A DNA stretch of 64,000 nt from Eubacteriales bacterium (lineage in GTDB: Bacteria; Bacillota; Clostridia; Oscillospirales; CAG-382): the NCBI GenBank assembly GCA_045644305.1, contig JAZRGS010000031.1:3722-67721 (forward strand), in the 5' to 3' direction. The first letter of the stretch is position 1; each line of letters starts with the position of its first letter. Below the pieces are notes generated by a model. That model had not been told where the DNA came from, did no database searches, and saw nothing but the letters and a program-made list of their open reading frames with translations. Below are positions 2,620 to 50,977 of this stretch, one piece after another. The translations under genes were made by a program, and so were the position numbers.

Positions 2620-2870
2620 CTTTTTTCACAGTCGCGATAGACCATGCAACAAATTTGTTGACGTCTCTCCGCGAATCCTTTCAATAATTTGTAACCCTCG
2701 ACGGGGTTCTATTATTTGTTACAATTCACTTTATAAGTTCTTTTTCTTCGCCGCGAAGAGTAGAACCATCGTCCACGCGGGGAGAATGCTTTATTTATAG
2801 CCGCCTCTACCGCGGGAACTACTTGGCGGATTATCCGCCCGCGGGAACTACTTGGTGCGTTACGCACCCT
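2620..2870 (-). repeat. Intergenic mosaic repeat, copy A (long variant)
   Basis: Shares ordered modules with 3684-4062, 5281-5805 and 6975-7160. Contains the 27-nt invariant core attatttgttacaattcactttataag and hairpins at 2825-2839 and 2854-2868. Confidence 0.9.
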
Positions 2871-3683
2871 TTACAGGGTTTTCAAGTAGGTTATGCTTAA
2901 TTTTGCACATTCCATGCGAGATTTATTCATCGAGGGATAGTCCTGCTCAACGATAAACCATTCAACGCCGCATTTTTCAGCCTTTTCGATAATCGGCGCG
3001 AAGTTTTGCACGCCGTATCCGACGGGGCGGAACTCAAATTCCTGCTTTACGGTTTCTTTCGGTTTGCTCTCGATGCCGATAAGCTCGTACATATTGTCGC
3101 TCTTTTGACCGACGTAGTCCTTCAAGTGGAGAAGCGGGCAACGGTTTGCGTACTTGTCGAGGTAGTGAATCGGGTCCTGACCCGCAACCGATACCCAGCA
3201 GGTGTCCATTTGCATCTTCAAAAGCTCGGCAGGGGTGGTGTCGTAAAGGTTGTCGAAGCCTGTTTCGCCGCTTTCAAGCAGAACGAAATCGAATTCGTGG
3301 TTGTGGTAGCTCAGCGACATTCCTGCGTCGTGCACAGCTTCGCCGATCTTGACAATCGCGTCGCGTGTCGCCAAGTAGTTTGCGCCGCCGGGACGGTCGT
3401 CTTCGCCGAGCCAAGGAATAACGATGTGCTTGCAACCGACGGTTTTGTATGTGTTGATAACGCCTGCGGTGTCACGGAGCAGGTCGGGAAGCGAAACGTG
3501 TGCCGAAATCGGTGTAAGACCGATTTTTTCGACAAGCGCCTTCATCTCCTCGGGCGTTTTTCCGTAAAGTCCTGCGAACTCGACGCCCTCGTAGCCGTAT
3601 TCCTTAAGCGCCGTTAAGGTCGCTTCAATATCTCTTTCGGCATCGTCTCTTACCGAATATAACTGTATAGCAATAGGTTTCAT
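2871..3683 (-). CDS. Sugar phosphate isomerase/epimerase (xylose-isomerase-like TIM barrel)
   Basis: 270-aa ORF. The pattern IQLYSVRD...GYEGVEF...HNHEFDF is typical of the AP-endonuclease-2/TIM-barrel family. Confidence 0.75.
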   Translation of the reverse strand: MKPIAIQLYSVRDDAERDIEATLTALKEYGYEGVEFAGLYGKTPEEMKALVEKIGLTPISAHVSLPDLLRDTAGVINTYKTVGCKHIVIPWLGEDDRPGGANYLATRDAIVKIGEAVHDAGMSLSYHNHEFDFVLLESGETGFDNLYDTTPAELLKMQMDTCWVSVAGQDPIHYLDKYANRCPLLHLKDYVGQKSDNMYELIGIESKPKETVKQEFEFRPVGYGVQNFAPIIEKAEKCGVEWFIVEQDYPSMNKSRMECAKLSITYLKTL

Positions 3684-4062
3684 TTCTTTTCAATTTCGCG
3701 GGCGCGTGACGCGCCGAGCAGTTTCGCGATGAGCCTTTCAACAAGCTCATAATGCTCTCTCCGCGATACCCTTCAATATTTTGTTGCCCTCGACTCCACG
3801 CGGAGTGAGGTTTTTCTGCTTTGTTAGGGTTTACCGCGGGCTTTACTTGGTGCATTATGCACCCGCGATACCCTTCTATATTTTGTAAGCCTCAATTGGA
3901 TTCTATTATTTGTTACAATTCACTTTATAAGTTCTAACCCCTCGTTACGAAGAGTAGAACCGTCGTCCACGCGGGTGGAAGGCTTTATTTATAGCCGCCT
4001 CTACCGCGGAACTGAAAAGGCGGGTTACCCGCCCGCGGGAACTACTTGGTGCATTATGCACC
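3684..4062 (-). repeat. Intergenic mosaic repeat, copy B (short unit plus long unit)
   Basis: About 83 nt (3688-3770) match 6978-7059 with one mismatch. Hairpins lie at 3701-3715, 3849-3863, 4019-4033 and 4048-4062. Confidence 0.9.
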
Positions 4063-5280
4063 CCATTTGCCGTCGACGAAGATGGGGGTAGCGACGCCGT
4101 CCTTGTAGCCGGTGATGCAGAGGTCGTCGGAGCCGATCATAAAGTCAACGTGGATCATCGAGTCGTTAACGCCGAGCGCGTGAAGCTCGTCAAGGGTCAT
4201 GTTTTCGAATCCCTTAACACAGCCGGTGTAGCCCGAGCCGAGAGCAACGTGGCAGGACGCGTTTTCGTCGAAGAGGGTGTTGTAGTAAAGCAATCCGCTT
4301 GCCGCGATGGGGGAGTCCTTGGGGACGAGCGCAAGCTCGCCGAGCATTCTGCTTCCCTCGTCGGTGGTGATAATCTTACCGAGCGCTTCCTCGCCCTTTT
4401 CGGCGTGCCAAGCAACAGCCTTGCCGTCCTCGAAGTCGATATAGAAGTTTTCGATAAGTGTGCCGCGTGCCGAAAGCGGCATCGCAGAAACGAGTCTGCC
4501 GCTGCATTTGCCCTTCATCGGGGTGGTGAAGATCTCCTCGGTCGGCATATTCGGGTTGTAGAATACACCCTGAAGCGTGTATTCGCCGCCGCCGCACCAA
4601 ACGCTTTCCTTCATAAGCTCGCACTTGAAGTCGGTGCCGTTTTTGGAGGTATAGTGGAGATAATCGAACTGCATTTTGTTGAGCCATTCGCTCTTTTCGC
4701 GGAACGCCTGATTCTTTCTGTCCCAAGCCGCGATAGCGTCGTTGGTTTCGTCGCATTCGACGGTCGCAAGGATTGCCTCCCAAAGCTTTTCAACGGCAAC
4801 GCTTGTGCGTTCGTTGGGGAACACCTTCTTCGCCCACGCCTTGCCGGGGATAGCGCAAACCAGCCACTGGTGCTTGTTGTCCATCGCGTCGCGGTAGGGC
4901 TTGATAAGCTTCGAAGCGGCGATGCTTGCCTTCGCGAGCTTTTCCTGATTAACAGAAGCGAGCCCGTCGGGGTCCTCGCAGATAAGACGGATGCGAGCGG
5001 GGAGAATTTCGGAATCGTGCTTAACGCGCTCGACCTGCCAAGCGGGAACGTCGCAAAGCGAACGGGTGGTGCGGTGTCTGTAAGCAAGCTTGGTGAGCTG
5101 GGTCATCGACCAGTCAACGCGAACGTTGCCCGCGCCTGCACGGTATGCCTCTTCGGCAAGGATTGCGACGAAATCCGCCGCCTCGACGTCAGCGCCGATG
5201 TTCAACTGCTGACCCTTCTGGATGTTTACGCCCTGCTTGATAAGAAGCTTCGCGTATTTTCTCATTACACTTTTCTTCAT
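4054..5280 (-). CDS. M29-family aminopeptidase (AmpS/PepS-like)
   Basis: The N-terminus MKKSVMRKYAKLLIKQGVNIQKGQ and overall length fit aminopeptidase II/T. I prefer the ATG at 5280 over the ORF-track start at 5304, which lies inside the repeat. Confidence 0.8.
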   Translation of the reverse strand: MKKSVMRKYAKLLIKQGVNIQKGQQLNIGADVEAADFVAILAEEAYRAGAGNVRVDWSMTQLTKLAYRHRTTRSLCDVPAWQVERVKHDSEILPARIRLICEDPDGLASVNQEKLAKASIAASKLIKPYRDAMDNKHQWLVCAIPGKAWAKKVFPNERTSVAVEKLWEAILATVECDETNDAIAAWDRKNQAFREKSEWLNKMQFDYLHYTSKNGTDFKCELMKESVWCGGGEYTLQGVFYNPNMPTEEIFTTPMKGKCSGRLVSAMPLSARGTLIENFYIDFEDGKAVAWHAEKGEEALGKIITTDEGSRMLGELALVPKDSPIAASGLLYYNTLFDENASCHVALGSGYTGCVKGFENMTLDELHALGVNDSMIHVDFMIGSDDLCITGYKDGVATPIFVDGKWGA

Positions 5281-5805
5281 TTTTTTAGTTTCGCGATGAG
5301 CCATACAACAAGATTGTTAACTCTTCATCGCGATTCCTTTCTGGTATTTGTTAACCTCGACTCCACGCGGACTGAGGTTTTTCTGCTTTGTTAAGGTTTA
5401 CCGCGGGCTTTACTTGGTGCATTATGCACCCGCGATACCTTTGGCGCGTGACGCGCCGCACAGTTTCGCGATGTGTCGGTCAACAAGCTCATAATGCTCT
5501 CTCCGCGATTCCTTTCTGGTGCTTGTAACCCTCAATTGGGTTCCATTATTTGTTACAATTCACTTTATAAGCTCTAACCCTTCGCCACGAAGAGTAGAAC
5601 CATTATCCACGCGGGTGGAAGGCTGTTTTAAATTTCAAACTTTACCGCGGGAACTGAAAAGGTGTGTTACACACCACGCGGGTATAGCGTTACATTATTT
5701 TGCCGCCTTTATCGCGGGAATTGCTTGGGGCGTCACGCCCCCCCGCGGGAGCTGAAATAAATGCGAGACCTCTGTTGAAAGAAGTCTCGCAAGGCAGCTC
5801 GATAA
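5281..5805 (-). repeat. Intergenic mosaic repeat, copy C (module set present twice)
   Basis: Same modules as copies A, B and D. Hairpins lie at 5416-5430, 5443-5457, 5661-5675 and 5727-5741, and the invariant core at about 5545-5571. Confidence 0.9.
5750..5792 (-). terminator. Intrinsic terminator after yajC
   Basis: On the minus strand, stem gcgagac/gtctcgc (5763-5769 with 5784-5790) is followed by atttatttc. Confidence 0.6.
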
Positions 5806-6183
5806 TTACTTTTTCATTTTCACGTTGCTGTCGACTTTGGAATCCTTGACTTCCTTAACCGCGGGCTCGTTAGCCTTTTCGAGAACCGAGTGGACCGCCC
5901 ACTTCTGGATCTGGATCTTGGTTCTGTTGCCGCTGGTTTCAACGAGAAGCATGTCCTCGGTGATCTTAACGACCATAGCCACGATGCCGCCGGTGGTGCA
6001 GATAACGTCGCCAAGCTCGATCGAATTGCGCATATCCGCGGTTTCCTTTTCCTGCTTCTTCTGAGGACGGTAGATGAAGAAATAGAAGACCAAAACGAGC
6101 GGAACGAGAGTGATGAGAAGCGAAATCGCGCCGCCGCCTGCGGGTGCGGTTTCTTCAAGCATCAAAAGATTTGTAAGATTCAT
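5806..6183 (-). CDS. yajC: Preprotein translocase subunit YajC
   Basis: Single N-terminal TM segment, then YRPQKKQEKE...GDVICTTGGIVAMV, the YajC signature. Confidence 0.85.
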   Translation of the reverse strand: MNLTNLLMLEETAPAGGGAISLLITLVPLVLVFYFFIYRPQKKQEKETADMRNSIELGDVICTTGGIVAMVVKITEDMLLVETSGNRTKIQIQKWAVHSVLEKANEPAVKEVKDSKVDSNVKMKK

Positions 6184-6974
6184 TTTAAGTTACCTTCGCT
6201 GTATTTTATTCTTTTTACGTTTGTGCAATAAAGCGTGCTTTCGTCGATTTCGAAGACCGCGCCGGTAAGCGCGATATTCTTCTTTTCGGGGATGCCCTTC
6301 ATGCGGACGTTCTTTGTAAAGCACGATATCGCGGTGTTGTAGGATACACCGATGATCGAATCTGTGCTTCCGCACATCCCGATGTCGCTGATATAACCGC
6401 TTCCGCGGTCGGTGAGCCGTTCGTCGGCTGTCTGCACGTGGGTGTGCGTGCCGAACACCGCTTGAATCCGTCCGTCGAAGATATGCATGAACGCCTGCTT
6501 TTCGCTGGTTGCCTCGCCGTGGAAATCGCAGATAGCAATGTCGTAATTGCCCTTTTGGCGCTCAAGCAGACGCTCGACCGCGTGGAACGGCGAATCGACC
6601 GGGTCCATAAAGACCTGACCGCAAACCGAAATAACCATCGCGCGAAGCCCGTTTTTTATCGGAACGATGCAATAGCCCTCGCCCGGCGAATCGGGCGGGA
6701 AGTTGAGCGGACGAAGCACCGTCGGCTCGTCCTCGAGCAGGTCGAAAATCGCGTATCTGCGGAAGGAATGGTTGCCGCCCGTGAGGACGTCGGCGCCGCT
6801 TTCAAACAAAATGTCGGCGTCGTATTTCTCCAAACCGCTTCCTTCGTGAGCGTTTTCGGCATTTACGATAACCAAGTCGGCGTTTTCCGCGTTCTTGATC
6901 CTTCGCAAGTTTTTCCGCACAAATTCCAAGCCGGGGGTTCCGAAAACATCTCCCACCGCAAGAATTCTAACCAT
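6180..6974 (-). CDS. ymdB: YmdB-family metallophosphoesterase (2',3'-cyclic-nucleotide phosphodiesterase)
   Basis: MVRILAVGDVFG...GNH...GTHTHVQTADE, and it lies directly downstream of rny as in Bacillus. Confidence 0.85.
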   Translation of the reverse strand: MVRILAVGDVFGTPGLEFVRKNLRRIKNAENADLVIVNAENAHEGSGLEKYDADILFESGADVLTGGNHSFRRYAIFDLLEDEPTVLRPLNFPPDSPGEGYCIVPIKNGLRAMVISVCGQVFMDPVDSPFHAVERLLERQKGNYDIAICDFHGEATSEKQAFMHIFDGRIQAVFGTHTHVQTADERLTDRGSGYISDIGMCGSTDSIIGVSYNTAISCFTKNVRMKGIPEKKNIALTGAVFEIDESTLYCTNVKRIKYSEGNLK

Positions 6975-7160
6975 TTTTTCAATTTCGCGGGCGCGTGACG
7001 CGCCGAACAGTTTCGCGATGAGCCTTTCAACAAGCTCATAATGCTCTCTCCGCGATACCTTTCTGGTATTTGTTAACCTCGACTCACGCGGAGTGAGGTT
7101 TTTCTGCTTTGTTAAGGTTTACCGCGGGAACTACTTGGCGGATTATCCGCCCCGCGATAC
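6975..7160 (-). repeat. Intergenic mosaic repeat, copy D (short variant, no AT-rich core)
   Basis: Near-identical to the first half of copy B. Hairpins lie at 6990-7004 and 7137-7151. Confidence 0.9.
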
Positions 7161-7272
7161 CCTTTCTTTTTTCAAAGTCACGATAAACGAAACAATATGC
7201 TTGTTACCGTTTCGCCGTGAAATTTTATTTAAATACAACTTACCCGAAAAGCGTTCAGAGCAGATGCAGATT

Positions 7273-13587: not shown

Positions 13588-13650
13588 GCCATCACCGCCT
13601 TTCTGGGATTATAGCATATTTTACAAAGCAATTCAAGAACTTTTCGCATT

Positions 13651-13846
13651 CTCACATCTCAATCACGCCGAAGGCGTGTATATCATCCGCAACTTGTTGC
13701 GGTATATCATCAACACGGAGTGTTGTATATCATCAAGCCGCTGGGAAATGCACGCTAAAGCGTGATGAGATACAAGGGCGGCAAGCCGCCCATGATGATA
13801 TACACCGCACGTTGTGCGGCGATGAGATGCCAAGCCTGCGGCTTGG
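13651..13846. repeat. Array of 7 short hairpins joined by a conserved 9-nt linker (three forward, three inverted)
   Basis: Hairpins lie at 13664-78, 13687-702, 13711-25, 13751-64, 13776-91, 13805-19 and 13830-46. The linker is TATATCATC x3, then its complement GATGAKATR x3. Confidence 0.85.
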
Positions 13847-13891
13847 ATAAAAAAAGAAGCAACTTTTGGTAGACAAAAGTTACTTCTTTTT

Positions 13892-13911
13892 TGGCAGCGG
13901 AATAGGGATTC
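13892..13911 (-). repeat. Duplicated 3' end of tRNA-Gln (att-like scar)
   Basis: tggcagcggaatagggattc is identical to 14080-14099 (24 nt identical if the preceding tttt is included). Confidence 0.85.
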
Positions 13912-14079
13912 TCCGCAGACTTCACGCCTACATACGGCGCTCCGCGCCTCTTTCGCCGCGCGTCTGCTCCCCTGTGGCACTGCAAACGTGTCCCCGACAC
14001 GTTTGCTCGGCTTCGCCGCCGTGCCCTTCGAATCCCTTCAGAACAAAACAAAAAACCACCGTGTGGTGGTTTTTTGTTT

Positions 14080-14154
14080 TGGCAGCGGAATAGGGATTCG
14101 AACCCCAACAAACAGAGTCAGAGTCTGTCGTGCTAACCGTTACACAATTCCGCT
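14080..14154 (-). tRNA. tRNA-Gln (CTG)
   Basis: Hand-folded cloverleaf: acceptor AGCGGAA/TTCCGCT, anticodon loop CTCTGAC, T-loop TTCGAAT, encoded CCA. A terminator hairpin lies at 14055-14075. Confidence 0.85.
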
Positions 14155-14301
14155 ATATTGGTTCTGCGCTCTTGCGCGTTGACTATTCTATCACTGTTTT
14201 TGACGATTGTCAAGTCTTTTTTGTTTTTTTTGAAATTTTAAGGAGCGAAAACCGCTGTCACTTCAAAGAAAGTGCGAATATACTGTCGAGGGTGATGAAT
14301 T

Positions 14302-50442: not shown

Positions 50443-50623
50443 AAGTTAACTTCCTATAAGTAGATTATAATATATTATACAGCAAAAGCGAAAAAAAGCA
50501 AGAAATATGCTGTAATAATATTACAGTTTTTGTCCTCGGACACATAACCCGACGATGAAAGTGCAACAGTTTCTCATAACAACAAAAAACAAGGCACACC
50601 GTGTGTGGTGTACCTTGTTTTTT

Positions 50624-50640
50624 TGGTTGCGGGGACAGGA
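50624..50640 (-). repeat. Duplicated 3' end of tRNA-fMet (att-like scar)
   Basis: tggttgcggggacagga is identical to 50902-50918 (21 nt with the preceding tttt). It is preceded by its own terminator hairpin at 50586-50622. Confidence 0.85.
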
Positions 50641-50901
50641 GTATTATGTTATTGTTTTGTCCGGCGTAATCGTTACATGCCACCGCCTTGCGGTGCCCGA
50701 ATTTTCATTCGGCTTCGTTAGTCACTGCGCCGTGAAAATTCGACCGCTGCGGGAAACATTGCTCGCTGTATCCGCCACCGGCGGCGCGAGCCATGTTCCC
50801 CCAACGAGCCACGCTCGTCGGTCTCATAACACGAAAAACGCAAGGCAAAGCCTTGCGCCAAAACCAAAACGAAAAACCACCCGATTGGGTGGTTTTCATT
50901 T

Positions 50902-50977
<76 letters not shown>

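What the first reader, a model, noticed from the sequence alone, without database searches (positions are those of the whole stretch)
13651..13846. Array of seven variable-stem hairpins joined by a conserved 9-nt linker in mirror orientation
The non-coding stretch reads L-hp1-L-hp2-L-hp3-L ... hp4-L'-hp5-L'-hp6-L'-hp7.
- L is TATATCATC (13679, 13703 and 13726, with a diverged CATCTCAAT at 13655).
- L' is its reverse complement: GATGAGATA, GATGATATA and GATGAGATG (13764, 13794, 13821).

The hairpins are all different but perfectly paired, each with a 5-7 bp stem and a 2-5 nt loop:
- CACGCC-gaag-GCGTG
- CCGCAA-cttg-TTGCGG
- CAACAC-gga-GTGTTG
- CACGC-taaa-GCGTG
- GGGCGGC-aa-GCCGCCC
- CCGCAC-gtt-GTGCGG
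- CCAAGC-ctgcg-GCTTGG

This is the same design principle as the 2.6-7.2 kb hairpins (conserved flank, free stem), but with an unrelated flank. The head-to-head arrangement resembles BIME clusters of REP elements. The array sits in an AT-rich accessory patch next to a tRNA-Gln att-like scar. It is not CRISPR-like: units are ~24 nt, the conserved part is only 9 nt, and there are no cas genes.
Basis: seen in the sequence. Interest (0 to 1): 0.6.

Follow-up and report, generated by a model that had tools for sequence, protein, structure and literature searches.

The report
Linker-and-hairpin DNA array beside tRNA-Gln
The seven hairpins are real and belong to a large, apparently undescribed family of repeat arrays found in uncultured gut and rumen Clostridia and their phages: a fixed 7-9 base linker alternates with small, ever-changing, perfectly paired DNA hairpins, and what the arrays do is still unknown.

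Summary
**Observation: confirmed.** Window 13651-13846 holds seven perfect hairpins. They are joined by TATATCATC (three times on +) and by its reverse complement (three times). That is far beyond chance.

**Not a one-off.** Thirteen alignable sequences (the window and 12 homologues) show compensatory stem changes. About 98 non-identical arrays of the same design were found in related MAGs, viral contigs and gut/rumen metagenomes.

**Family rules:**
- The linker is AT(A/T)TCA(C/T).
- Stems are strictly Watson-Crick: 1726 pairs, only 4 G·T.
- The loop-closing pair is C-G in 90%.
- Loops read G..A on the linker strand (137 cases against 2 T..C), with no purine preference at tetraloop position 3.

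This is the signature of the very stable DNA mini-hairpin C(GNA)G / C(GNNA)G, not of RNA.

**Position.**
- Arrays often sit just downstream of a tRNA gene and its terminator. In several loci the next promoter follows directly.
- A phage contig carries the same module (tRNA fragment, terminator, array) beside its integrase.
- The window copy is therefore most likely the att-proximal module of an old integrated element.

**Best reading (confidence 0.42).** This is a DNA-level element, like REP/BIME in position and ssi signals in design. Its hairpins display the linker to an unknown factor.

**Known families.** There is no Rfam match, it is not CRISPR, and it fails REP/BIME membership.

The parts
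13655..13663 (+). Left border, CATCTCAAT.
13664..13678 (+). Hairpin 1, CACGCC-gaa-GGCGTG, with a C(GAA)G cap on the + strand.
   Evidence: pairs CG/GC/AU co-vary
13679..13687 (+). Linker L1, TATATCATC.
13687..13702 (+). Hairpin 2, CCGCAAC-tt-GTTGCGG.
13703..13711 (+). Linker L2, TATATCATC.
13711..13725 (+). Hairpin 3, CAACAC-gga-GTGTTG. Replaced by CAATGC-gaa-GCATTG in L687, L630 and L616.
13726..13734 (+). Linker L3, TATATCATC.
13735..13750 (+). Centre, CAAGCCGCTGGGAAATG. A decayed fourth unit, conserved as CAAGCCGCAGG and the inverted copy of hairpin 7.
13751..13764 (-). Hairpin 4, CACGCT-aa-AGCGTG. First unit of the mirrored half.
13764..13772 (-). Linker L'1. GATGAGATA on +, which is TATCTCATC on -.
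13776..13791 (-). Hairpin 5, GGGCGGC-aa-GCCGCCC. Replaced by GCCCC-nnn-GGGGC or GCTCC-aaa-GGAGC in homologues.
13794..13802 (-). Linker L'2. GATGATATA on +, the exact reverse complement of L.
13805..13819 (-). Hairpin 6, CCGCAC-gtt-GTGCGG.
13821..13829 (-). Linker L'3, GATGAGATG on +.
13830..13846 (-). Hairpin 7, CCAAGCC-tgc-GGCTTGG, with a C(GCA)G cap on the - strand. Nearly invariant in homologues.
13850..13892 (.). Bidirectional intrinsic terminator of a conserved type (…CTTTTG-gtaga-CAAAAG…). It accompanies the array next to the tRNA in the homologous loci examined.
13893..13911 (-). Displaced 3' end of tRNA-Gln, identical to 14081-14099. An att scar that marks the old junction tRNA | terminator | array.
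   Evidence: L687 and L616 have an intact tRNA-Gln here
13912..14081 (-). Later insert: about 130 nt of GC-rich DNA plus its own terminator (14044-14081). It restores the tRNA 3' end. L001 has the same layout.
14080..14154 (-). tRNA-Gln (CTG).
13608..13636 (-). Sigma-70-type promoter TTGAAT-17-TATAAT of the cargo gene. It starts 27 nt from hairpin 1.
   Evidence: same layout in L616 and L687
12799..13587 (-). Cargo gene: a TMEM164-family membrane protein. It is absent from the orthologous locus L001 and replaced by unrelated small ORFs in homologues.

Best explanation
The array is one copy of a widespread family of DNA-level 'linker-hairpin arrays'. It is not an RNA gene and not a REP/BIME member.

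**The unit.** Each unit is an oriented module: a 7-9 nt AT-rich linker, AT(A/T)TCA(C/T), plus a short GC palindrome of arbitrary sequence.

**Proposed mechanism.**
- When the duplex is opened, by a fork or by supercoil-driven extrusion, the palindrome snaps into a very stable DNA mini-hairpin capped C(GNA)G or C(GNNA)G. This happens on the strand that carries the linker.
- The hairpins keep the identical linkers exposed as a row of short single-stranded sites. By analogy with published mini-hairpins, they also keep them free of SSB.
- An unidentified sequence-specific factor would read those sites.
- The stems differ from one another, so units cannot mispair or recombine.
- Mirror halves offer the same signal on both strands.

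**Likely kind of factor.** The only natural roles documented for such mini-hairpins are the G4-type complementary-strand origin, RSF1010 ssiA/ssiB and N4 hairpin promoters. By that analogy, the factor most likely starts RNA synthesis (priming) on single-stranded DNA.

**Position.** The arrays act as the spacer between a terminator and the next promoter, at boundaries of horizontally acquired cassettes.

**This window.** The array is the att-proximal module (tRNA 3' end, terminator, array, promoter, cargo gene) of an old integrated phage-like element at tRNA-Gln. A second small insertion later pushed it away from the tRNA.

**Shown:** the family, its anatomy, stem covariation, the strand-specific loop rule, the strict Watson-Crick pairing, the positions, and carriage on phages.

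**Inferred:** hairpin formation in vivo, the existence of a linker-reading factor, and a priming or insulating role.
For: **Reality and homology**
- Seven perfect hairpins against at most 5 in 2000 shuffles.
- Twelve alignable homologues. On that alignment 81.5% of cells are paired, against 27-39% when partners are slid.
- 17 of 45 pairs changed on both sides, and 0 of 500 shuffles reach the covariation score.

**Family**
- 98 non-identical arrays in MAGs, viral contigs and metagenomes.

**DNA rather than RNA**
- 1726 Watson-Crick pairs with only 4 G·T and 2 A·C.
- Closing pair C-G in 221 of 245 hairpins.
- Loops G..A in 137 of 245 against T..C in 2 of 245, after removing the hairpins used for ascertainment.
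- GNRA 25 against GNYA 32, so there is no RNA-tetraloop purine rule.
- GCGNAGC and GCGNNAGC are the published, extraordinarily stable, nuclease-resistant DNA mini-hairpins. Two consecutive copies bind SSB poorly. They occur at the G4/St-1 origins, RSF1010 ssiA and N4 promoters (PMC13037366).
- No Rfam family matches.

**Position**
- 23 of 98 arrays lie within 300 nt of a tRNA, and 26 of 28 array-tRNA pairs are downstream of it.
- In the window-type homologues and in loci such as L625, L702, L705, L708 and L714, a terminator lies on one side and a promoter with a variable orphan gene on the other.

**Phage carriage**
- L516: integrase, then a tRNA 3' fragment, then the terminator, then the array. 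L692 has the same terminator and array behind a real tRNA-Val.
- Arrays lie upstream of terS in L126 and L406, and between head genes in L317 and L526.

**Window locus**
- L687 and L616 have the same array 55-64 nt behind an intact tRNA-Gln.
- L001 has the same scar layout as the window.
Against: **No direct evidence**
- No experiment or expression data were available, and no cognate protein was identified.
- The only recurrent neighbour is a 23S_rRNA_IVP four-helix-bundle gene, next to 9-10 of about 98 arrays.

**Points against priming**
- Several arrays occur per phage genome, with 3-13 units each. That is odd for priming sites.
- The linker contains none of the CTA/TTA start triplets that I recall, from memory, for Firmicute DnaG.

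**Orientation**
- Array orientation shows no consistent relation to GC skew: 18 C-rich against 12 G-rich.
- So no replication-linked strand rule was found.

**Sampling and alternative causes**
- Array detection required perfect stems in most spacers, which inflates the Watson-Crick figure.
- The perfect palindromes could be maintained by template-switch correction (my inference, from the literature on quasipalindrome mutation) rather than by selection.
- Single-orientation arrays inside operons are transcribed, so an RNA role there is not excluded.
Confidence: 0.42

Rival explanations
1. Duplex-DNA protein-binding array. The linkers are iteron- or operator-like sites for a dimeric or oligomeric DNA-binding protein: a phage regulator, a centromere-binding protein or a host nucleoid protein. 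The sites are spaced about two helical turns apart. The palindromes serve only as spacers or as cruciform hinges that bring the sites together.
For: - The conserved 7-9 bp motif is repeated 3-13 times, in direct and inverted orientation.
- Spacing is 18-30 bp.
- The array lies immediately upstream of a promoter. In the L516-type arrays the last linker, ATATCATTGAAA, supplies the -35 hexamer.
- The motif resembles the WATCACW heptads of the omega repressor and a parS/NBS half-site (TATTTCAC). This is my recollection, not a test.
Against: - Variable spacing puts the sites on different helical faces.
- It gives no reason for every spacer to be a perfect palindrome with a strand-specific C(G..A)G cap.
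- In L516 the likely integrase arm repeats next to the integrase gene are a different sequence (CCGTAGTAAC, twice), so the linkers are not arm sites.
- Arrays occur at many unrelated positions in phage genomes.
- They are not conserved upstream of terS among TerL relatives.
Confidence: 0.2
2. Structured RNA. The array is transcribed, either as an sRNA ending at the adjacent terminator or as a 3'UTR/intergenic element. It would act as a stabiliser, a processing site or a protein sponge. In mirror arrays the linkers of the two halves would pair into a branched rod.
For: - Folding z-scores are -7.6 and -8.1, with L:L' helices in the MFE structure.
- Hairpins co-vary.
- L019 has a TTGACA-17/18-CATAAT promoter upstream of the array and a terminator downstream.
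- Many single-orientation arrays lie between a stop codon and a terminator (L126, L417, L018).
- Mirror halves share the linker type: TATATCATC in the window, ATTTCAC in L001.
Against: - There are almost no G·U pairs: 4 in 1726.
- Tetraloops show no GNRA purine rule.
- No Rfam match.
- No promoter was found for either strand of the window copy. It lies between a terminator and a divergent promoter.
- The linker pairs never vary, so L:L' pairing has no covariation support.
- Single-orientation arrays cannot form those pairs at all.
- On the sense strand of neighbouring genes the loops mostly read U..C, which is not a known stable RNA loop class.
Confidence: 0.15
3. Recombination or mobility substrate. 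The units are structure-defined sites with a short conserved core and variable hairpins, read on one folded strand, like integron attC sites or REP/RAYT targets. Promoter-gene-terminator cassettes would be captured or shuffled at these sites. Alternatively, the mirror arrays are MITE-like elements.
For: - Organisation is cassette-like: L705 has three tandem sets of terminator, array, promoter and small orphan gene.
- Cargo next to homologous arrays is completely variable.
- Units are reshuffled between homologous arrays.
- The same terminator+array module sits behind different tRNAs.
- An integrase and attP lie next to the array in L516.
- L516-type arrays end in the inverted repeat CAATGATAT / ATATCATTG.
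- Twelve arrays lie within 60 nt of the end of the sequence held for their locus. Four of these (L005, L009, L380, L583) are true contig ends.
Against: - No recombinase or HUH gene is recurrently linked: only one integrase, and no IS200/IS605-type hit in about 5 Mb of held sequence.
- Each array has many small perfect hairpins, not one long imperfect hairpin with extrahelical bases.
- No target-site duplications were seen.
- The copies are not identical, as fresh MITE copies would be.
Confidence: 0.12

Closest known systems
REP / BIME elements of Enterobacteria and Pseudomonas (RAYT-associated extragenic palindromes)
   Same: - Short GC-rich extragenic palindromes.
- Clustered head-to-head or in tandem.
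- Placed after genes and terminators.
- A short conserved non-palindromic motif sits next to each hairpin.
- Many copies per genome.
   Different: - REP stems are conserved in sequence within a genome and are imperfect. Here every stem differs and is perfect.
- The conserved motif is ATATCAY, not GTAG.
- No RAYT gene was seen.
- These arrays are also common on phage genomes.
Single-strand initiation signals built on DNA mini-hairpins: G4/St-1/alpha3 complementary-strand origin, RSF1010 ssiA/ssiB, N4 virion-RNAP hairpin promoters (PMC13037366)
   Same: - C(GNA)G or C(GNNA)G-capped hairpin on one specific strand.
- The hairpin is flanked by a short single-stranded recognition or start sequence.
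- ssiA and ssiB lie on opposite strands, like the mirror halves (my recollection).
- They are found on phages and mobile elements.
   Different: - Known signals are single hairpins of defined sequence.
- Here there are 3-13 units per array and several arrays per genome, with arbitrary stems.
- No primase or polymerase is linked to the arrays.
- The function was not tested.
Integron attC sites
   Same: - Variable sequence with conserved structure.
- Read on one folded DNA strand.
- A short conserved core.
- The sites separate gene cassettes.
   Different: - attC is one 57-141 nt imperfect hairpin with R/L boxes and extrahelical bases, and it needs IntI.
- Here there are rows of tiny perfect hairpins.
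- The cassettes carry their own promoters and terminators.
- No dedicated integrase is present.
Constant-size, variable-sequence tandem repeats of Firmicutes (Subirana and Messeguer; 20-21 nt and 52 nt repeats with short 'characteristic signals', PMC8161180)
   Same: - Non-coding arrays of about two helical turns per unit.
- A short conserved signal with otherwise variable sequence.
- Function unknown.
   Different: - Those were found as sequence-similar tandem repeats in Bacillus.
- A palindrome-plus-linker anatomy, G..A loops, tRNA linkage and phage linkage are not described there.
CRISPR arrays
   Same: A constant element alternates with variable elements.
   Different: - The constant part is only 7-9 nt.
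- The variable part is an 11-20 nt palindrome.
- No cas genes were noticed near the array (not searched).
- The roles of palindrome and unique sequence are inverted.

Membership tests
REP/BIME | The palindrome sequence is conserved among copies in one genome. | tested here: not met
   All seven stems differ. Across 98 arrays only the linker is shared.
REP/BIME | A conserved GTAG/GTGG head lies next to the hairpin. | tested here: not met
   The motif is AT(A/T)TCA(C/T).
REP/BIME | Extragenic clusters in alternating or tandem orientation, at gene ends. | tested here: met
   - The array is intergenic.
- 40 of 98 arrays contain units in both orientations (37 cleanly mirrored).
- Terminators are enriched beside arrays: 24% against 4% at random positions.
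REP/BIME | A cognate RAYT (Y1 HUH transposase) is present in the genome. | tested here: inconclusive
   tblastn with a recalled IS608 TnpA sequence found nothing in the window or in any held locus. The rest of the genome was not available.
CRISPR | Repeats of 23-47 nt, unique non-palindromic spacers, and cas genes or a leader. | tested here: not met
   The constant part is 7-9 nt and the variable part is palindromic. No cas genes were noticed near the array, but they were not searched for.
Known RNA families (Rfam 15) | A match to a covariance model at the gathering score. | tested here: not met
   Only tRNAs reach threshold. The best sub-threshold hits in the array score 16 bits or less.
Structured RNA in general | Stems tolerate G·U pairs, and loops are of RNA type (GNRA/UNCG). 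| tested here: not met
   Only 4 G·T among 1726 pairs. GNRA 25 against GNYA 32.
DNA mini-hairpin / ssi-type single-strand signals | A hairpin capped C(GNA)G or C(GNNA)G on one defined strand. | tested here: met
   G..A loops 137 of 245 against T..C 2 of 245. C-G closing pair in 221 of 245. Motif definition from PMC13037366.
DNA mini-hairpin / ssi-type single-strand signals | Supports primer or RNA synthesis on single-stranded DNA by a cognate primase or polymerase. | not testable with these tools
   This needs an M13-ssi complementation assay or an in-vitro priming assay.
Integron attC | A single imperfect hairpin with R''/L''-L'/R' boxes and extrahelical bases, with IntI nearby. | tested here: not met
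   Stems are perfect and 4-11 bp long. No IntI-like gene is recurrent.
Integrase arm-type sites of attP | The same short repeat occurs on both arms of attP. | tested here: not met
   In L516 the integrase-side arm carries CCGTAGTAAC twice, not the linker.
MITE | Terminal inverted repeats, a target-site duplication, and near-identical dispersed copies. | tested here: inconclusive
   L516-type arrays end in CAATGATAT/ATATCATTG. No target-site duplication was seen, and copies differ unit by unit.

The most novel reading that the evidence does not exclude
The arrays are the joints of a cassette system in temperate phages and islands of gut Clostridia. They would be structure-defined single-strand DNA sites, with a conserved 7-nt core and free-sequence mini-hairpins, analogous to integron attC. 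At these sites promoter-gene-terminator 'morons' would be captured, exchanged and reshuffled next to attP or tRNA genes. An equally novel alternative is that they are multi-unit priming or initiation signals of a kind not known in double-stranded DNA phages.
Probability: 0.12. Interest if true: 0.85.

Novelty: new variant of a known kind. Interest (0 to 1): 0.62.

Why it matters
If the family is what it seems, gut and rumen Clostridia and their phages carry a common, unrecognised class of DNA signal. Its information lies in structure, a strand-specific ultra-stable mini-hairpin, plus a 7-nt motif.

**Practical consequences**
- The arrays break short-read assemblies. Four arrays lie at true contig ends.
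- They mark prophage and tRNA junctions and cassette boundaries.
- They could be used to find att-proximal cargo genes.

**Biological interest**
- They offer a natural test of what DNA mini-hairpins do in cells.
- So far that question rests on three isolated examples: the G4 origin, ssiA and N4 promoters.
- They point to an unknown linker-reading factor.

Tried and rejected
**Database searches with no result**
- Rfam at gathering score and at E-value threshold gave only tRNAs.
- BLAST of the 321 bp against annotated phages and plasmids gave nothing relevant.
- An exact-protein look-up of the neighbouring gene found it not on record.
- Five literature searches found no description of this architecture.

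**Packaging signal upstream of terS: rejected**
- L126 and L406 have arrays there.
- Of the other TerL-related loci, only L417 has a small array near that position.

**Integrase arm sites: rejected**
- The integrase-side repeats in L516 have a different sequence.

**RAYT/IS200 link: not found**
- No tblastn hit.

**Strand rule relative to replication: not found**
- GC skew around single-orientation arrays gives 18 against 12.
- An early impression that the linker strand is always antisense to neighbouring genes holds for several phage loci and for 20 of 26 tRNA-proximal units. Window-type arrays and L526 break it.

**Resemblances considered from memory and not pursued, as unsupported**
- Shine-Dalgarno mimicry: local ribosome-binding sites read GGTGAT.
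- Chi (GAAGCGG/AGCGG), which is present in only some stems.
- DnaA box.
- parS/NBS half-site.
- C/D-box K-turn (weak snoRNA hits).
- HUH nick sites (CTTGATA, TAATATTAC).
- -10-like elements.

**Cargo proteins**
- No Pfam or PADLOC family matched.

**Search design**
- The first wide pattern scans of viral contigs were mostly noise, from AT-rich tandem repeats.
- Adding the GCGMAGC cap to the pattern made the metagenome scan mostly true hits.
Full report
**1.

Window 13651-13846 contains seven non-overlapping perfect hairpins with 6-7 bp stems and 2-3 nt loops. They lie at 13664-78, 13687-702, 13711-25, 13751-64, 13776-91, 13805-19 and 13830-46.

- The linker TATATCATC separates them at 13679, 13703 and 13726.
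- Its reverse complement separates them at 13794 (exact), 13764 and 13821 (one and two changes).
- In 2000 shuffles of the segment, none reached more than 5 hairpins.
- This is the most hairpin-dense 196 nt of the 64 kb.
- Either strand folds with z of about -7 as DNA and about -8 as RNA.

The 'centre' 13735-13750 turned out to be a decayed eighth unit.

**2. Local context**

Reading leftwards on the minus strand, the order is:

- tRNA-Gln (14154-14080);
- a terminator (14081-14044);
- about 130 nt of GC-rich DNA;
- a 19-nt duplicate of the tRNA 3' end (13911-13893);
- a second bidirectional terminator (13892-13850);
- the array;
- a near-consensus promoter TTGAAT-17-TATAAT (13636-13608);
- a TMEM164-family membrane-protein gene (13587-12799).

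An XRE-type HTH gene converges on that gene. No promoter was found that would transcribe the array itself. Rfam has no match. Annotated phages and plasmids hold nothing similar.

**3. It is a family**

Loci syntenic through the neighbouring lyase gene come from uncultured Clostridia, Eubacteriales and Oscillospiraceae MAGs of ruminant guts. The best lyase identity is 73%. Several carry the same design:

- L002 and L005 have it directly behind tRNA-Gln and its terminator. L005 uses the linker ATTTCAC.
- L001 is the true orthologue. It has the XRE gene, a mirror array (GTGAAAT four times, then ATTTCAC three times), a terminator, the tRNA fragment, a GC-rich insert, a terminator and tRNA-Gln. It has no membrane-protein gene.
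- L009, L018 and L019 have arrays elsewhere.

Pattern scans found more arrays on viral contigs. After removing duplicates I hold 98 arrays of 3-13 linkers each:

| Arrangement | Arrays |
|---|---|
| Single orientation | 58 |
| Linker strand switches rc → canonical | 25 |
| Linker strand switches canonical → rc, as in the window | 12 |
| Mixed (three or more switches of orientation) | 3 |

. ('Canonical' means the strand on which the linker reads ATATCAY; 'rc' is its reverse complement.)

**4. Direct homologues of the window array**

BLAST of the window array against the held loci picked out 13 related loci. Twelve were aligned with the window array; the thirteenth, L606, is partial. Shared features of the aligned set:

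- The same unit order.
- The same first hairpin, most often CACGCC-gaa-GGCGTG.
- The same centre (CAAGCCGCAGG).
- The same CACGC....GCGTG unit.
- The same last hairpin (CCAAGCC-tgc-GGCTTGG) and A-rich terminator.

Stems differ in two ways. Some show compensatory swaps: CAACAC/GTGTTG against CAATGC/GCATTG, and CCAAGCC/GGCTTGG against CCAATCC/GGATTGG. Others show whole units replaced or reshuffled between positions.

On this alignment, 81.5% of cells pair, against 27-39% when partners are slid. Seventeen of 45 pairs changed on both sides, and no shuffle of 500 reaches the covariation score (RNAalifold agrees). The linker columns are invariant. A pairing of left with right linkers is predicted in single-sequence folds, but it has no covariation evidence for or against it.

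**5. Rules that point to DNA**

Across the family:

- Stems hold 1726 Watson-Crick pairs with 13 internal mismatches, of which only 4 are G·T and 2 are A·C.
- I removed one pattern-matching hairpin per array from the pattern-ascertained loci. After that, the loop-closing pair is C-G in 221 of 245 hairpins.
- Loops read G..A on the strand where the linker reads ATATCAY in 137 of 245 (GAA, GCA, GTA, GGA, GTCA, GCAA and others). T..C occurs in 2 of 245.
- Among G-N-N-A tetraloops, position 3 is a purine in 25 and a pyrimidine in 32.

An RNA under selection would show G·U pairs and the GNRA purine rule. This pattern instead matches the DNA mini-hairpin motifs GCGNAGC and GCGNNAGC, which have a sheared G·A pair. 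They are described as extraordinarily thermostable and nuclease-resistant, and two consecutive copies bind SSB poorly. Their natural occurrences listed so far are the G4/St-1/alpha3 complementary-strand origins, RSF1010 ssiA and the N4 virion-RNAP hairpin promoters (PMC13037366).

The loop asymmetry follows the linker orientation in both halves of mirror arrays. Each unit is therefore an oriented module read on one strand.

Two caveats apply. My array finder demanded perfect stems in most spacers. Perfect palindromes can also be kept perfect by template-switch correction, which is my inference.

**6. Where arrays sit**

- Twenty-three of 98 arrays lie within 300 nt of a tRNA gene.
- In 26 of 28 array-tRNA pairs the array is downstream, typically 40-70 nt after the tRNA, just beyond its terminator.
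- Fourteen different tRNA identities are involved.
- The same window-type array with the same terminator follows tRNA-Gln, -Thr, -Asn and others.
- On the other side, several loci have a promoter within a few to about 30 nt. Examples are the window-type homologues L616 and L687 and the L516-type loci L625, L702, L708 and L714. In L516-type arrays the terminal linker ATATCATTGAAA supplies the -35. A gene follows that differs from locus to locus and mostly has no family.
- L705 shows three such units in tandem: terminator, array, promoter, small gene.
- With strict criteria, terminators lie next to 24% of arrays against 4% of random positions.
- The only recurrent neighbour is a 23S_rRNA_IVP (Avd-like four-helix-bundle) gene, next to 9-10 arrays of three sub-types.

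**7. Phage carriage explains the tRNA link**

The viral contig L516 reads in order: tyrosine integrase, two CCGTAGTAAC repeats, a tRNA 3' fragment ending CCA, a terminator, a mirror array, a promoter and a four-helix-bundle gene. L692 has the identical terminator and array behind a genuine tRNA-Val.

So tRNA 3' end + terminator + array is the att-proximal arm of temperate elements. Integration places it behind the host tRNA.

Other phage copies lie between a RusA gene with a small Cys-rich ORF and terS (L126), upstream of terS (L406), and in the gaps around the Prp, portal and scaffold genes (L317, L526). Of the other TerL-related loci, only L417 has a small array near that position. The arrays are therefore sporadic and not an essential packaging signal.

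**8. Reading of the window locus**

An element carrying the terminator, array, promoter and cargo integrated at tRNA-Gln. L687 and L616 preserve that state with an intact tRNA 55-64 nt away. A second small insertion (13912-14081) later renewed the tRNA 3' end and displaced the old one (13893-13911). L001 has the same scar layout.

The cargo next to the array has turned over. It is a membrane-protein gene here, nothing in L001, and unrelated ORFs elsewhere.

**9. Mechanism**

*Shown:* anatomy, conservation of structure, the strand-specific DNA-type caps, the positions, and phage carriage.

*Inferred:*
- On strand opening, the palindromes fold into mini-hairpins.
- These hairpins hold the identical linkers single-stranded and free of SSB, for a sequence-specific reader.
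- Different stems prevent mispairing and deletion.
- Mirror halves serve both strands.

A role as a spacer or insulator between a terminator and the next promoter fits the placement, but it is equally untested.

I rate the DNA-level reading at about 0.4-0.5 and the priming version at about 0.2.

*Against:*
- No factor was found.
- There are many units per array and many arrays per genome.
- Orientation does not track GC skew.

**10. Rivals**

- **Duplex protein-binding iterons (0.2).** Weakened by irregular spacing and by the unexplained capped palindromes.
- **Structured RNA (0.15).** Weakened by the pairing and loop statistics, and by placement outside transcription units. It is still possible for arrays inside operons and for L019, which has its own promoter and terminator.
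- **attC-, REP- or MITE-like recombination substrate (0.12).** Supported by the cassette layout and unit reshuffling. Weakened by the lack of a linked enzyme.

**11. Novelty**

Five full-text searches found no description.

- The closest published descriptions are the constant-size, variable-sequence tandem repeats of Bacillus (PMC8161180).
- REP/BIME are closest by position.
- Mini-hairpin ssi signals are closest by design.

The array fails REP/BIME, CRISPR, attC and Rfam membership. I file it as a new variant of the extragenic palindromic-repeat kind, with function open.

Noticed in passing
window 2790-7170: A second family of 'conserved flank + variable hairpin' units. It fills the intergenic gaps between four minus-strand genes. 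The flank is ACCGCGGGAACTACTT and the hairpins are GGYGSR-tta/tga-YSCRCC. On the minus strand the flank reads AAGTAGTTCCCGCG, which contains GTAG. No Rfam match.
   Followed up: partly
window 50616-50977: tRNA-Met (50902-50977, minus strand) has a duplicated 3' fragment, TTGGTTGCGGGGACAGGA, near 50622-50640. A terminator lies beside the fragment and about 250 nt of GC-rich structured insert separates it from the tRNA. This is the same layout as the tRNA-Gln scar, which suggests a class of very small inserts that renew tRNA 3' ends.
   Followed up: no
window 13912-14043; L001 about 3990-4080: The GC-rich insert between the displaced and the current tRNA-Gln 3' ends is present in both the window and L001, with different sequence. 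It contains a T-loop-like TTCGAATCCC in the opposite orientation.
   Followed up: no
window 13850-13892; L516, L598, L606, L674, L687, L714: The terminator that accompanies arrays is itself a conserved family: AAAAAAG-nnn-CTTTTG(TC)-tacc/gtaga-(GA)CAAAAG-nnn-CTTTTTT. The inner stem and loop are conserved and the outer stem co-varies.
   Followed up: partly
L516 about 480-835; L625, L646, L674, L685, L695, L696, L702, L708, L714: A 23S_rRNA_IVP (Avd-like four-helix-bundle) gene is the only recurrent neighbour of arrays. It occurs with three array sub-types, at a median identity of about 50% among copies. It is a possible array-associated factor, or simply a popular cargo gene.
   Followed up: partly
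L705 300-2400: Three tandem cassettes of terminator, array, promoter and small secreted or orphan gene. The first two arrays are nearly identical.
   Followed up: partly
L526 1-4487: A phage portal/scaffold region has four arrays in 4.5 kb, in the gaps around the portal and scaffold genes. Both the ATATCAY and GTGAAAT linker types occur on one contig. Paralogous arrays differ by compensatory stem changes (GTTCC/GGAAC against ATTTC/GAAAT).
   Followed up: partly
window 13588-13602, 14288-14301; L002, L004, L005 lyase starts: Ribosome-binding sites in this clade read GGTGAT(G) rather than GGAGG. The reverse-complement linker (GTGATAT, GATGATATA) resembles them.
   Followed up: no
L002 7711-7797: Two parS-like sites, TGTTTCACGTGAAACA. 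The L001/L005 linker TATTTCAC resembles a parS/NBS half-site.
   Followed up: no
L005 start, L009 end, L380 start, L583 start: Contigs begin or end inside arrays. The arrays probably break short-read assemblies.
   Followed up: no
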